A DNA stretch of 37,205 nucleotides from a virus (Duplodnaviria > Heunggongvirae > Uroviricota > Caudoviricetes). The DNA is taken from IMG/VR virus record IMGVR_UViG_2721755652_000006, one strand, 5' to 3'. Below, piece after piece: positions 7,235 through 8,378 of this stretch. The position numbers and the translations under genes are program-made. Numbering within the stretch: the stretch's first letter is position 1; each line of letters begins with the position of its first letter. The notes under the pieces were generated by a model. The model searched no databases, was not told the origin of the DNA, and was given only the letters and a program-made list of their open reading frames with translations.

Positions 7235-7371
7235 TGTTTGAGTCTTATATGGCAGAACGTCTTCGCCACCGCTGGATGCGCCTGCGCTTATATCGTTTTC
7301 CTGGTTCTGTTTTGACCGATTACCGGATACTGAAGAATTACGCCAAAACACTGAAAGGAGCTGCCGCATGA
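7231..7371 (+). CDS. ylcG: Small protein YlcG-like (46 aa)
   Basis: ATGATG start overlapping the rusA stop; stop overlaps the next ATG (ATGA); product [46 protein letters not shown]. Confidence 0.55.
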
Positions 7372-8057
7372 ATACCCAATATTTACAGTATGTCCGCGAG
7401 CAACTCATTGTGGCTACCGCTGATTTGAGCGGAGCAACGAAAGGACAGCTTGAAGCCTGGCTGGAGCATGCACAATTTGATACTGGTACATACAAACGAA
7501 AGAAGCCGCGCATTCTGGATGAGGTAACTGGCAGGATGATTACGCTGGATAATCCGCCGATTTCCGGTAAGCAGTCGTACGCAAAAGGTTCATCCATTGC
7601 ACTGGTCAGCCAGGTTGAGTTCTCAACCTCGTCATGGCGCCGCGCGGTTCTGTCTCTCGAAGAACATCAGAAAGCGTGGTTGCTGTGGAGTTACAGCGAA
7701 AGTGTTCGCTGGGAACATCAGGTCACCATAACGCAGTGGGCATGGAGCGAGTTTAAGACTCTGTTGGGTACCAGGAAAATTGCAGGTAAGACACTGGAAC
7801 GTTTGAAGAAGTTGATCTGGCTGGCGGCACAGGATGTGAAGAACGAGCTGGCAGGGCGTAAGACCTATGAATACCAGGAGCTGGCATCACTGGTGGGAGT
7901 GACATCAAAAAACTGGTCTGAGACATTTACTGAACGCTGGGTTGCAATGAAACACATTTTTCTACAGCTTGATAGCCAAGCTTTATTGCTTTTAACGAAA
8001 ACACGTTCAAAACAAAAGACCACATTTTCACAGCAAGATATTGCAAAACTGGATTAA
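7368..8057 (+). CDS. Putative late-gene antiterminator (Q-like), assigned mainly by position
   Basis: 229-aa ORF directly downstream of rusA/ylcG and directly upstream of a promoter and terminator pair and the lysis cassette; not similar to lambda Q as I recall it. Confidence 0.45.
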   Translation: MNTQYLQYVREQLIVATADLSGATKGQLEAWLEHAQFDTGTYKRKKPRILDEVTGRMITLDNPPISGKQSYAKGSSIALVSQVEFSTSSWRRAVLSLEEHQKAWLLWSYSESVRWEHQVTITQWAWSEFKTLLGTRKIAGKTLERLKKLIWLAAQDVKNELAGRKTYEYQELASLVGVTSKNWSETFTERWVAMKHIFLQLDSQALLLLTKTRSKQKTTFSQQDIAKLD

Positions 8058-8069
8058 AAATCATATATT
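8041..8069 (+). promoter_or_regulatory. Candidate late promoter (pR'-like): -35 TTGCAA (8041-8046), 17-bp spacer, -10 TATATT (8064-8069)
   Basis: Sigma70-like hexamers with optimal spacing, overlapping the 3' end of the Q-like gene and followed by a leader with two intrinsic terminators. Confidence 0.45.
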
Positions 8070-8126
8070 TTATGTAAATCTGATATTTTGCCAATGTTGT
8101 ACGCACTGGCAGTAATCCAAATTCAA

Positions 8127-8162
8127 GCCCGAGGTTTAAAGCCTTGGGCTTTTCTGTTTCTG
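8127..8162 (+). terminator. Intrinsic terminator-like hairpin in the late leader (stem GCCCGAGG / CCTTGGGC, then a U-rich tract)
   Basis: 8-bp stem with one G-U pair and a 7-nt loop, followed by TTTTCTGTTTCTG. Confidence 0.45.
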
Positions 8163-8238
8163 AACGGTGAGTAGCCTTCCAACCTACCCCAGCCAGGGGG
8201 TCTTCAGCTGTTGAGTTGATATTGCTTAGCCCTCTGTT

Positions 8239-8262
8239 GCCAGCTACATGCTGGCTTTTTTA
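8239..8262 (+). terminator. Rho-independent terminator (tR'-like): GCCAGC-TACAT-GCTGGC followed by TTTTTTATT
   Basis: Perfect 6-bp GC-rich stem, 5-nt loop and a 6-T tract, about 170-190 nt downstream of the candidate late promoter. Confidence 0.7.
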
Positions 8263-8378
8263 TTCCAGGCTTGTGGGGAGCATCAACTCCGTGCTTTGTC
8301 GTTAAATTACCCCGTGAGCCTGATTTCTGACATTTAACGTCCCGGCCTTTTGTCGGCGGCGAAACATTGGCTATTCAT

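What the first reader, a model, noticed from the sequence alone, without database searches (positions are those of the whole stretch)
7368..8366. Non-lambda Q-like gene followed by a promoter and two intrinsic terminators before the lysis genes
The 229-aa protein at the Q position does not look like lambda Q, and its last ~30 residues (…FLQLDSQALLLLTKTRSKQKTTFSQQDIAKLD) look like an appended tail. A sigma70-like promoter overlaps its 3' end, and the ~300-nt leader contains two terminator hairpins before the holin. This matches a Q-dependent late control region, possibly producing a short terminated leader RNA, and may be a different antiterminator family or a fusion.
Basis: partly seen in the sequence, partly recalled or inferred. 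Interest (0 to 1): 0.5.

Follow-up and report, generated by a model that had tools for sequence, protein, structure and literature searches.

The report
Phage 82-type Q late-gene switch
This is an almost exact copy of the well-studied phage 82 Q antiterminator gene with its late promoter, pause site and terminators, sitting in a defective E. coli O157:H7 prophage, so it is an ordinary, already known system.

Summary
ORF 7368-8057 encodes 229 aa. A sigma70-type promoter (TTGCAA 8041-8046, 17 nt, TATATT 8064-8069) overlaps its last codons. Two good intrinsic terminators (8125-8160 and 8239-8265) lie in a ~300-nt leader before the holin gene at 8379.

None of this is new. The protein is 225/229 identical, without gaps, to the Q antiterminator of phage 82. 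It is a full-length member of Pfam PF06323, the Q82 family, one of three known Q families. The start of the leader fits every published descriptor of 82 pR' that I could reach: an extended -10-like pause element, GCC at +15-17 and U at the +25 pause site.

The "appended tail" reading fails. The C-terminus has no gaps in homologues down to 66% identity, and D202 and L206 are at least 90% conserved across the family. AlphaFold places the tail inside one confident long helix (180-223). The final codons also carry the -35 hexamer.

The promoter and pause element keep the same register in all 13 other loci where a Q82-family gene still abuts its late promoter. The terminators vary in sequence, but nearly every locus has one.

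Side results:
- The +1-to-T1 transcript is a sub-threshold relative of the Salmonella sRNA IsrJ, which appears to be the leader RNA of a Q82-type pR'.
- The predicted Q82 fold matches AlpA, Q-lambda and Q21 best.

The parts
7231..7371 (+). ylcG / phage 82 orf45 homologue. Its stop overlaps the Q start (ATGA), which suggests translational coupling.
   Evidence: ORF list. Annotated as YlcG family in RefSeq. Same position as orf45 in the phage 82 record X92588.
7368..8057 (+). Q82-type transcription antiterminator gene (229 aa plus stop).
   Evidence: PF06323, E 1.4e-94, covering aa 4-220. PHROG 304, aa 1-222. 225/229 identical, no gaps, to phage 82 Q. RefSeq name is 'bacteriophage antitermination protein Q'.
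8041..8046 (+). pR' -35 hexamer TTGCAA, embedded in codons I-A-K of the Q C-terminus.
   Evidence: Promoter scan. TTGCAA is unchanged in 13 other loci, 12 next to a Q82-family gene plus the Gifsy-1 isrJ promoter, and reads TTGAAA in phiES15. It always starts 16 nt before the last base of the stop codon where the gene abuts the promoter.
8047..8063 (+). Promoter spacer. Inferred location of the Q-binding element (QBE).
   Evidence: PMC4914094 places the QBE of Q-dependent late promoters between -35 and -10, and within 82 pR' -31..+30. The spacer is 11-17 of 17 identical across seven loci. The QBE assignment is an inference; it was not tested here.
8064..8069 (+). pR' -10 hexamer TATATT.
   Evidence: Promoter scan. 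Conserved in homologues.
8076..8076 (+). Inferred transcription start (+1, A).
   Evidence: This is the only register that puts GCC at +15-17 and U at +25, as published for 82 pR' (PMC5001585; sequence). Inferred, not measured.
8081..8092 (+). Sigma70-dependent pause element: extended -10-like TGaTATTTT (+6..+14) followed by GCC (+15..+17).
   Evidence: Matches the published description of 82 pR'. The -10-like hexamer is 5-6 of 6 identical in seven homologous loci. The AAATCTGATAT core recurs in ten further loci and, slightly diverged, in phage 434.
8100..8101 (+). Predicted promoter-proximal pause positions +25 (T) and +26.
   Evidence: Register taken from PMC5001585. Inferred.
8073..8152 (+). 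Short leader RNA, a relative of the IsrJ sRNA family (pR' +1 to terminator T1, about 80 nt).
   Evidence: Rfam RF01393 isrJ, 30.4 bits (gathering score 37), E about 6e-4 to 1e-3, full model length. Hits above the gathering score occupy the same position after Q82-family genes in Enterobacter phage ENT1 and Klebsiella phage ST11-VIM1phi8.1.
8125..8160 (+). Intrinsic terminator T1 (tR'-like): 12-bp stem, 3-nt loop, U-rich tail.
   Evidence: Terminator scan. Fold dG -18.4, z -3.9. The stem is kept, with two compensatory pairs, across IsrJ-type leaders.
8239..8265 (+). Intrinsic terminator T2: GCCAGC/GCUGGC stem with a U6 tract.
   Evidence: Terminator scan. Fold dG -11.9, z -3.6. 26-27 of 27 identical in the loci that share this lysis cassette.
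8379..9605 (+). Downstream lysis genes that the switch controls: holin 8379-8684, lysozyme 8671-9147, Rz 9144-9605.
   Evidence: Pfam PF16083 holin and PF03245 Rz. RefSeq annotation.

Best explanation
The region is the late-gene switch of a phage 82-type lambdoid prophage. In this window it is a DLP12-like defective prophage of E. coli O157:H7. The inferred mechanism has five steps.

1. Gene 7368-8057 encodes an orthologue of the phage 82 Q antiterminator.
2. Host sigma70 RNA polymerase starts constitutively at the late promoter pR'. Its -35 hexamer lies in the last Q codons, its -10 at 8064-8069, and +1 at 8076.
3. Sigma70 then re-binds the extended -10-like element TGaTATTTT at +6..+14, and the polymerase pauses at +25/+26.
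4. Without Q, transcription ends at T1, giving an RNA of about 80 nt. Any read-through ends at T2, giving an RNA of about 185 nt, so the holin, lysozyme and Rz genes stay silent.
5. When Q is made, it binds the QBE in the promoter and loads onto the paused complex, helped by NusA. The polymerase then becomes resistant to terminators, so T1 and T2 are read through and the lysis and morphogenesis genes are expressed.

Shown here: identity of the protein and of the cis elements with the phage 82 system, their conservation, and the terminator folds.

Inferred from published phage 82 biochemistry: pausing, Q loading and read-through.
For: Protein:
- 98% identical (225/229, no gaps) to phage 82 Q.
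- PF06323 at 316 bits against a cut-off of 25. PMC9388147 names PF06323 as the Q82 family.

Gene order:
- The order ybcN/ninB, ninE, ybcO, rusA, ylcG, Q matches the phage 82 record.
- It is followed by holin, lysozyme and Rz.

Cis elements:
- The leader matches the published 82 pR' descriptors: an extended -10 in the pause element, GCC at +15-17, an AT-rich stretch, and U at +25.
- The -35 hexamer, the +1..+8 stretch, the pause element and +15..+26 persist in loci whose Q is only 61-77% identical and whose downstream leader is unrelated.
- Most such loci have an intrinsic terminator 50-110 nt downstream; the plasmid copy pMTY18781-3 has only a weaker candidate about 190 nt downstream.
- T1 and T2 fold far better than shuffled sequence.

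Leader RNA:
- PMC7547250 reports short antitermination-regulated RNAs from the late promoters of phages 21, phi80, 82 and P22.
Against: - Nothing in the sequence contradicts this reading.
- No experiment was run on this copy.
- The promoter consensus match alone is at chance level.
- The full published 82 pR' sequence could not be retrieved. X92588 ends at the Q stop codon, and the supplements were not held. The register therefore rests on textual descriptors.
- The prophage lacks an immunity region, N, and an intact O gene. Whether Q is ever expressed from this copy is unknown.
Confidence: 0.93

Rival explanations
1. The protein is a new antiterminator family, or a fusion in which about 30 unrelated residues were appended to a Q-like core.
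For: The tail is basic and low in complexity. The most distant relatives (N15, PY54 and phiKO2 Q, 26-29% identical) align by tblastn only up to about residue 195-198. The last 6-9 residues have low pLDDT.
Against: - The Pfam model covers aa 4-220 and the PHROG model aa 1-222.
- Eight homologues at 66-98% identity are all 229 aa, with no gap in the tail. Nearly all of the 120 listed database relatives are 229 aa.
- Cluster representatives at 31-40% identity align through query residues 224-228.
- D202 and L206, inside the supposed tail, are at least 90% conserved across 67 members.
- AlphaFold places 180-223 in one helix, with pLDDT 88-96 over 181-220.
- Codons 225-229 double as the -35 hexamer and the start of the spacer.
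Confidence: 0.02
2. In this defective prophage the module no longer acts as a lysis switch. Its main product today is the constitutive ~80-nt pR'-T1 RNA, which acts in trans as an Hfq-binding regulatory sRNA, as StxS and IsrJ do.
For: - The prophage has no repressor, N, or intact O gene.
- gpU is interrupted by a group II intron.
- The leader gives a full-length but sub-threshold hit to the Rfam family 'isrJ Hfq binding RNA'.
- StxS shows that a pR'-tR' by-product can become a regulator.
- Sampled O157:H7 genomes carry two or three places matching this module, with a 100% identical second copy at icd in one strain.
Against: - The hit is below the gathering score (30.4 against 37 bits).
- The middle of the RNA differs from IsrJ.
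- No expression, Hfq-binding or target data were obtained for this locus.
- Q, the holin, the lysozyme and Rz are all intact ORFs, which fits a module that still works.
Confidence: 0.2
3. The promoter-like site is a chance match, and the hairpins merely end the upstream nin/Q operon.
For: The number of promoter-like sites in the region equals the shuffled expectation. T1 lies 68 nt after the Q stop codon, where an operon terminator could sit.
Against: - The -35 hexamer keeps the same register relative to the stop codon in all 13 other loci where a Q82-family gene abuts its late promoter, from several genera. The -10 and the pause element are kept even where the flanking sequence is unrelated.
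- In Gifsy-1 the same promoter, separated from Q by an insertion, still heads the experimentally detected IsrJ RNA.
- The sequence fits the published 82 pR' descriptors.
Confidence: 0.03

Closest known systems
Phage 82 Q protein and its late promoter 82 pR' (Q82 family, Pfam PF06323)
   Same: - 225/229 identical protein of the same length.
- Same upstream genes (orf151/ninB, orf56/ninE, orf96/ybcO, rus, orf45/ylcG).
- The -35 hexamer sits in the last codons.
- The pause element has an extended -10, GCC at +15-17 and U at +25.
   Different: - Four conservative substitutions, all in residues 204-224.
- It lies in a defective DLP12-like O157:H7 prophage rather than an active phage.
- Identity of the region downstream of the stop codon to authentic phage 82 could not be checked base by base.
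Lambda Q, pR', 6S RNA and tR' (Q-lambda family, Pfam PF03589)
   Same: - Same logic and gene position: a constitutive late promoter, a QBE in the promoter, a sigma70-dependent promoter-proximal pause, a terminated short leader RNA, and NusA-stimulated read-through into the lysis genes.
   Different: - No sequence similarity.
- No cysteines at all, so no zinc ribbon (sequence; lambda Q zinc ribbon described).
- The pause is at +25/+26 rather than +16/+17.
- The leader to the first terminator is about 80 nt rather than 194 nt.
Phage 21 Q (Q21 family, Pfam PF06530) and Pseudomonas AlpA
   Different: - No Pfam hit at E<=1.
- Q21 acts without NusA, as a closed nozzle.
- Q82 can load onto complexes that carry a long RNA, so it may work differently.
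IsrJ sRNA of Salmonella Gifsy-1 (Rfam RF01393)
   Same: - Identical promoter and initial transcribed sequence: ATTGCAAAACTGGATTAAAA...TATATTTTATGTAAATCTGATAT.
- Same length class.
- Related terminator beginning AAUUCAAGCC.
- Same position right after Q82-family genes in phages ENT1 and ST11-VIM1phi8.1.
   Different: - The window RNA scores below the family threshold, at 30.4 against 37 bits.
- The central hairpin differs.
- In Gifsy-1 an inserted module (isrK, C4 RNA, antirepressor gene) separates the promoter from the Q gene.
StxS sRNA from the pR'-tR' leader of Stx phages
   Same: Also a short RNA that arises as a by-product of a constitutively active, Q-controlled late promoter in O157:H7 prophages.
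   Different: I found no relationship in sequence. StxS is processed from a longer leader, and its function is shown, whereas none is shown here.

Membership tests
Q82 antiterminator family (Pfam PF06323) | Full-length match to the family profile above the curated cut-off | tested here: met
   316.3 bits against a cut-off of 25, aa 4-220 on model positions 1-217 of 220. PHROG 304, E 1.5e-108.
Q82 antiterminator family (Pfam PF06323) | Close similarity to the type protein, phage 82 Q | tested here: met
   225/229 identical, 0 gaps. DNA is 98.4% identical to X92588.
Q82 antiterminator family (Pfam PF06323) | Gene position between the nin/rusA region and the lysis cassette | tested here: met
   RefSeq annotation of the identical region, and the phage 82 record.
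Q82 antiterminator family (Pfam PF06323) | Cognate late promoter with a sigma70-dependent pause element (extended -10-like sequence, GCC at +15-17, pause at +25/26) | tested here: met
   Window 8041-8101 fits all the published descriptors in one register. Conserved in 13 other Q82-family loci and at the Gifsy-1 isrJ promoter. This is sequence evidence only.
Q82 antiterminator family (Pfam PF06323) | QBE-dependent, NusA-stimulated terminator read-through activity | not testable with these tools
   Needs in vitro transcription or reporter assays. Known for phage 82 Q.
Q-lambda family (Pfam PF03589) | Sequence similarity to lambda Q or the family profile | tested here: not met
   BLASTP best E 3.9. 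No PF03589 hit at E<=1.
Q-lambda family (Pfam PF03589) | Zinc-ribbon 'arm' (Cys ligands) | tested here: not met
   The 229-aa sequence contains no cysteine. The lambda Q zinc ribbon is described in PMC9388147.
Q21 family (Pfam PF06530) | Sequence match to the family profile | tested here: not met
   [not shown]
IsrJ sRNA (Rfam RF01393) | Covariance-model score at or above the gathering score | tested here: not met
   30.4 bits against 37, E about 6e-4 to 1e-3, full model length.
IsrJ sRNA (Rfam RF01393) | Same promoter, start region and genomic position as true IsrJ genes | tested here: met
   The Gifsy-1 isrJ promoter and 5' end match window 8040-8086 apart from the 3' end of the spacer. Hits above threshold start 16 nt after the Q stop codon in ENT1 and ST11-VIM1phi8.1.
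Intrinsic (Rho-independent) terminators | G+C-rich hairpin directly followed by a U tract, folding better than shuffled sequence | tested here: met
   T1: 12 pairs, dG -18.4, z -3.9. T2: 6 pairs, dG -11.9, z -3.6. Termination itself was not tested.

The most novel reading that the evidence does not exclude
The ~80-nt transcript from pR' (+1 at 8076) to T1 may be a functional RNA rather than a mere by-product. It may be a diverged member of the IsrJ family, made constitutively from the two or three copies of this module found in sampled O157:H7 genomes. It may act in trans, with Hfq, on host or virulence genes, as StxS does in EHEC and as IsrJ is reported to do in Salmonella. A corollary is that IsrJ is simply the terminated leader of a Q82-type late promoter. 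I did not find this link stated in the papers I could search.
Probability: 0.2. Interest if true: 0.45.

Novelty: already known. Interest (0 to 1): 0.1.

Why it matters
For the finding as given, it matters little. Phage 82 Q and 82 pR' have been a standard model for sigma70-dependent pausing and Q antitermination since the 1980s. RefSeq already names this gene "bacteriophage antitermination protein Q". About a quarter of complete E. coli genomes (1393 of 5426) contain a match, and 695 records match at 99% identity or more.

Two by-products may be of modest use:

- **IsrJ.** The Salmonella virulence-associated sRNA IsrJ appears to be the terminated leader RNA of a Q82-type late promoter. That would explain its constitutive expression. 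It also predicts IsrJ-like RNAs wherever Q82-family prophages occur, O157:H7 included.
- **Predicted fold.** No Q82 structure has been solved. The AlphaFold model finds AlpA, Q-lambda and Q21 as its three best matches among 48,164 PDB chains. This hints that the Q families, currently described as purely analogous, may share a core fold.

Tried and rejected
- **Authentic 82 pR' sequence.** The phage 82 GenBank record in the phage collection (X92588) ends at the Q stop codon. The supplements of PMC4914094 and PMC5001585 are not held. A full-text search for three sequence strings found nothing. A search for 't82' terminator literature added nothing. The register therefore rests on textual descriptors.
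- **PDB sequence search.** The protein gave no hit at E<=1.
- **First AlphaFold run.** It used 41 close homologues (at least 75% identical) and was useless, with mean pLDDT 48.7. Its model was not searched. A second run with 67 diverse sequences gave pLDDT 82.5.
- **Rfam at gathering thresholds.** Nothing was found in the leader. Only the E-value scan showed the isrJ relation. The other weak Rfam hits, mir-7918 and MicX (E about 0.6), were dismissed as chance.
- **Small ORFs in the leader.** They are 24-29 aa, mostly with non-ATG starts, and have no support. I rejected them as genes.
- **A third hairpin at 8272-8293.** It does not fold better than shuffled sequence (z -0.6), so I do not count it as a terminator.
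- **Fusion or appended-tail reading.** Rejected.
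Full report
**What is in the sequence**

ORF 7368..8057 (+) encodes 229 aa. Its ATG overlaps the stop codon of the preceding 46-aa ylcG ORF in an ATGA motif. The stop codon TAA is at 8055-8057.

A sigma70-type promoter match lies on the + strand: TTGCAA at 8041-8046, a 17-nt spacer, and TATATT at 8064-8069. The -35 hexamer therefore sits inside the last codons, ATT GCA AAA CTG GAT TAA.

The terminator scan finds two convincing intrinsic terminators:
- T1 is AAGCCCGAGGTTTAAAGCCTTGGGCTT at 8125-8151, followed by TTCTGTTTCT.
- T2 is GCCAGCTACATGCTGGC at 8239-8255, followed by TTTTTTATTC.

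Folded alone, they give -18.4 kcal/mol (z -3.9) and -11.9 kcal/mol (z -3.6) against dinucleotide shuffles. A third candidate at 8272-8293 is no better than shuffled sequence, z -0.6.

The holin gene starts at 8379 in RefSeq annotation of the identical sequence.

The number of promoter-like sites in the surrounding 2 kb is what shuffling gives (2 found, 2.2 +/- 1.3 expected). The consensus match alone proves nothing. Terminator-like sites are enriched, 6 found against 2.0 +/- 1.4 expected.

**What the protein is**

- Pfam gives a single hit, PF06323 Phage_antiter_Q. The E-value is 1.4e-94 and the score 316 bits against a cut-off of 25. It covers residues 4-220 on model positions 1-217 of 220.
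- PHROGs gives phrog_304, 'anti-termination protein Q-like', over residues 1-222.
- Megablast against phage records finds the phage 82 record X92588. Its CDS is annotated 'phage 82 Q antiterminator', and the DNA is 98.4% identical.
- At the protein level the two are 225/229 identical with no gaps and the same length.
- The upstream genes in the window (ybcN/ninB, ninE, ybcO, rusA, ylcG) are the orf151, orf56, orf96, rus and orf45 of that same phage 82 record.
- PMC9388147 states that Q proteins form three families: Q21 (PF06530), Q-lambda (PF03589) and Q82 (PF06323).

The protein has no cysteine, so it cannot have lambda Q's zinc ribbon. It is a near-copy of the founding member of a known family, not a new one.

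**The supposed appended tail**

- Eight homologues at 66-98% identity are all 229 aa and align without a gap through the C-terminus.
- Nearly all of the 120 closest database clusters are 229 aa.
- In a search of 1.84 billion cluster representatives, full-length relatives at only 31-40% identity still align through query residues 224-228.
- In a 67-sequence family alignment, D202 and L206 are among the ten positions conserved in at least 90% of members.
- A first AlphaFold run on close homologues failed, with pLDDT 48.7.
- A second run on the diverse alignment gave mean pLDDT 82.5 and pTM 0.70. It shows a single long helix spanning 180-223, with pLDDT 88-96 over 181-220. Only the last 6-9 residues are uncertain.
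- Codons 225-229 are also constrained at the DNA level, because they carry the -35 hexamer and the start of the spacer.
- Only the most distant relatives (N15, PY54 and phiKO2 Q, 26-29% identical) stop aligning near residue 195-198.

The tail is an integral part of the family. It is not an appendage, and the protein is not a fusion.

**The promoter, pause element and start site**

PMC5001585 describes 82 pR' as follows:
- The -10-like pause-inducing element matches TATAAT better than lambda's and includes an extended -10.
- A GCC discriminator-like element lies at +15-17, followed by an AT-rich stretch.
- The major pause is at +25/+26, with U as the 3'-terminal base at +25.

In the window only one register satisfies all of these. 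With +1 = A8076 the transcript begins AAATCTGATATTTTGCCAATGTTGTA. That gives:
- TG-a-TATTTT at +6..+14 (8081-8089),
- GCC at +15..+17 (8090-8092),
- AATGTT after it,
- T at +25 (8100).

PMC4914094 places the QBE of these promoters between the -35 and -10 hexamers, and within 82 pR' -31..+30. In the window this is 8047-8063. That assignment is an inference.

I could not retrieve the full published 82 pR' sequence. The match therefore rests on descriptors rather than a base-by-base comparison.

I collected loci that carry Q82-family genes:
- E. coli prophages and a plasmid,
- phage 434,
- PPompW and 606R7,
- Enterobacter phage ENT1,
- Klebsiella phages ST11-VIM1phi8.1, RCIP0114 and '2 LV-2017',
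- Cronobacter phage phiES15,
- Gifsy-1.

In all 13 other loci where the Q gene still abuts its promoter, the -35 hexamer starts exactly 16 nt before the last base of the stop codon. It reads TTGCAA in twelve of them and TTGAAA in phiES15. A -10 hexamer follows, and then a TGATAT-type pause element. In ten of these loci the element has the AAATCTGATAT core seen in the window.

In the seven-locus comparison, the segments score as follows even where Q is only 66-77% identical:

| Segment | Identical bases |
|---|---|
| -35 hexamer | 6 of 6 |
| +1..+8 | 6-8 of 8 |
| -10-like hexamer | 5-6 of 6 |
| +15..+26 | 7-12 of 12 |

In the four loci whose leader diverges, identity downstream of +27 collapses to background, for example 9-19 of 36 in T1.

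Most of these loci still have an intrinsic terminator 50-110 nt downstream, though with unrelated sequence. The plasmid copy pMTY18781-3 is the exception. The scan finds only a weaker candidate about 190 nt downstream. This is what Q biology predicts. The Q gene, QBE, promoter and pause element co-evolve as one unit. The terminator is interchangeable, because Q-modified polymerase ignores terminators in general.

T2 is conserved (26-27 of 27) only in the loci that share this holin cassette.

**The short leader RNA**

PMC7547250 notes that short antitermination-regulated RNAs are made from the late promoters of phages 21, phi80, 82 and P22, citing Schechtman et al. 1980 for phage 82. It also shows that one such RNA, StxS, is an Hfq-binding regulator in O157:H7.

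An E-value-thresholded Rfam scan of the leader gives one hit, RF01393 isrJ ('isrJ Hfq binding RNA'). It spans 8073-8152 and the full model length, at 30.4 bits against a gathering score of 37, with E about 6e-4 to 1e-3. That is exactly from the inferred start to T1.

In Gifsy-1 the isrJ gene scores 100 bits. It is preceded by ATTGCAAAACTGGATTAAAAcggcTATATTTTATGTAAATCTGATAT. This is the same -35, most of the spacer, the -10, the start and the pause element as window 8040-8086. It includes the relic codons ATT GCA AAA CTG GAT TAA.

The Gifsy-1 Q82-like gene STM2617 is called AntQ in PMC4825925. It matches only through residue 216. An inserted module separates it from this promoter. The module holds isrK, the c4-a1b1 targets, C4 antisense RNA and an antirepressor-like gene, anrP.

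In Enterobacter phage ENT1 and Klebsiella phage ST11-VIM1phi8.1, isrJ hits above threshold (72.7 and 57.2 bits) begin 16 nt after the Q82-family stop codon. The terminator stem is kept, with two compensatory pairs, across these leaders.

In the papers I could search, IsrJ is treated as an island-encoded sRNA that is expressed in all conditions. It is not described there as a pR' leader. I cannot exclude that the link is published elsewhere.

**Genomic context**

The window is 100% identical to many E. coli O157:H7 chromosomes. The element is a DLP12-like defective lambdoid prophage with this gene order:
- int, xis, a 5'-truncated replication gene O, P, ren, emrE, ybcK
- ybcN, ninE, ybcO, rusA, ylcG, Q
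- holin, lysozyme, Rz, bor
- lambda-like packaging, head and tail genes

There is no repressor or N region. The gpU-like gene is cut by a minus-strand group II intron.

Sampled O157:H7 genomes carry two or three places matching the Q/pR' query. In strain PV15-279, the copy retrieved next to icd is 100% identical across Q, pR' and the leader. Whether Q is ever expressed from these copies is unknown. pR' itself should be constitutive.

**Fold comparison (side result)**

No solved structure matches the protein by sequence. PMC9388147 and PMC7171158 state that no Q82 structure exists and that the Q families show no significant 3D similarity.

| Search | Rank | Match | Score |
|---|---|---|---|
| Foldseek | 1-2 | AlpA (two entries) | prob 0.87-0.96, E 0.08-0.14 |
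| Foldseek | 3 | lambda Q, 7ubn_Q | prob 0.95, E 0.30 |

The scores are modest, and the query is a prediction. Even so, all three top ranks going to Q-type antiterminators is unlikely to be chance. It suggests a shared helical, HTH-containing core. This concerns the family, not this particular locus.

**Verdict**

The novelty claims fail. This is the phage 82 Q/pR' system itself, already annotated and very common. The tail is native to the family. Interest is low. The IsrJ connection and the predicted fold similarity are the only points that go beyond the textbook.

Noticed in passing
window 8073-8152; L012 (Gifsy-1) 4015-4121; L015 1406-1479; L019 1406-1484: The Salmonella sRNA IsrJ (Rfam RF01393) appears to be the terminated leader RNA of a Q82-type late promoter. 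In Gifsy-1 it is preceded by the same -35, -10, start and pause element as 82 pR'. In two phages it starts 16 nt after the Q82-family stop codon. The window's leader is a sub-threshold relative (30.4 against 37 bits). I did not find this link in the searchable literature.
   Followed up: yes
L012 (Gifsy-1, NC_010392.1) 2501-4033: The Gifsy-1 Q82-like gene (STM2617, AntQ) matches Q82 only to residue 216. About 840 bp separate it from its cognate pR'. The insert carries isrK, c4-a1b1 targets, a C4 antisense RNA and an antirepressor-like gene (anrP), which resembles a P1 immI-type module. The relic codons IAKLD* of the original Q end remain just after anrP.
   Followed up: partly
[not shown]
   Followed up: partly
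window 8033-8046, minus strand: TTGCAATATCTTGC fits the CII-box pattern TTGC-N6-TTGC on the minus strand and overlaps the pR' -35. The phage 434 record annotates a CII site and a paQ -35 at the equivalent place. The motif is kept only in the closest relatives, and this prophage has no cII region.
   Followed up: partly
window 8067-8094, minus strand: There is an antisense promoter-like site, TTGGCA / 16 nt / TAAAAT (10 of 12 matches), overlapping the pR' start and pause element. It is identical in pMTY18781-3, and weaker versions occur in two other loci. It may simply reflect the AT-rich sequence.
   Followed up: no
window 20232-22900: A group II intron lies on the minus strand. Rfam places domains at 20521-20597 and 22723-22869, and the RT/maturase/HNH ORF is at 20594-22318. 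It interrupts the plus-strand gpU-like tail gene (ORF 20232-20561, 109 aa), so the tail module is probably defective.
   Followed up: partly
window 1-5465: The prophage left arm is rearranged. int and xis directly abut a 5'-truncated replication gene O, followed by P, ren, emrE and the serine recombinase ybcK. There is no repressor, cro, cII or N region, so Q has no obvious inducible promoter.
   Followed up: partly
L004 (O157:H7 PV15-279) 8778-10033: A second, 100% identical copy of Q, pR' and the leader lies in another prophage next to icd in this O157:H7 genome. There a truncated ylcG abuts an xis/DUF4222 remnant. Sampled O157:H7 genomes carry 2-3 places matching this module.
   Followed up: partly
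L013 1600-1906; L014 1586-1826; L015 1489-1720: In several other Q82-family phages (606R7, PPompW, ENT1), clusters of three or four tRNA genes follow directly after the pR' leader terminator. They would therefore be under Q control.
   Followed up: no
window 36967-37165: Rfam gives a hit to IS009 (RF02111, 229 bits) inside the tail-fibre assembly gene at the right end of the window.
   Followed up: no
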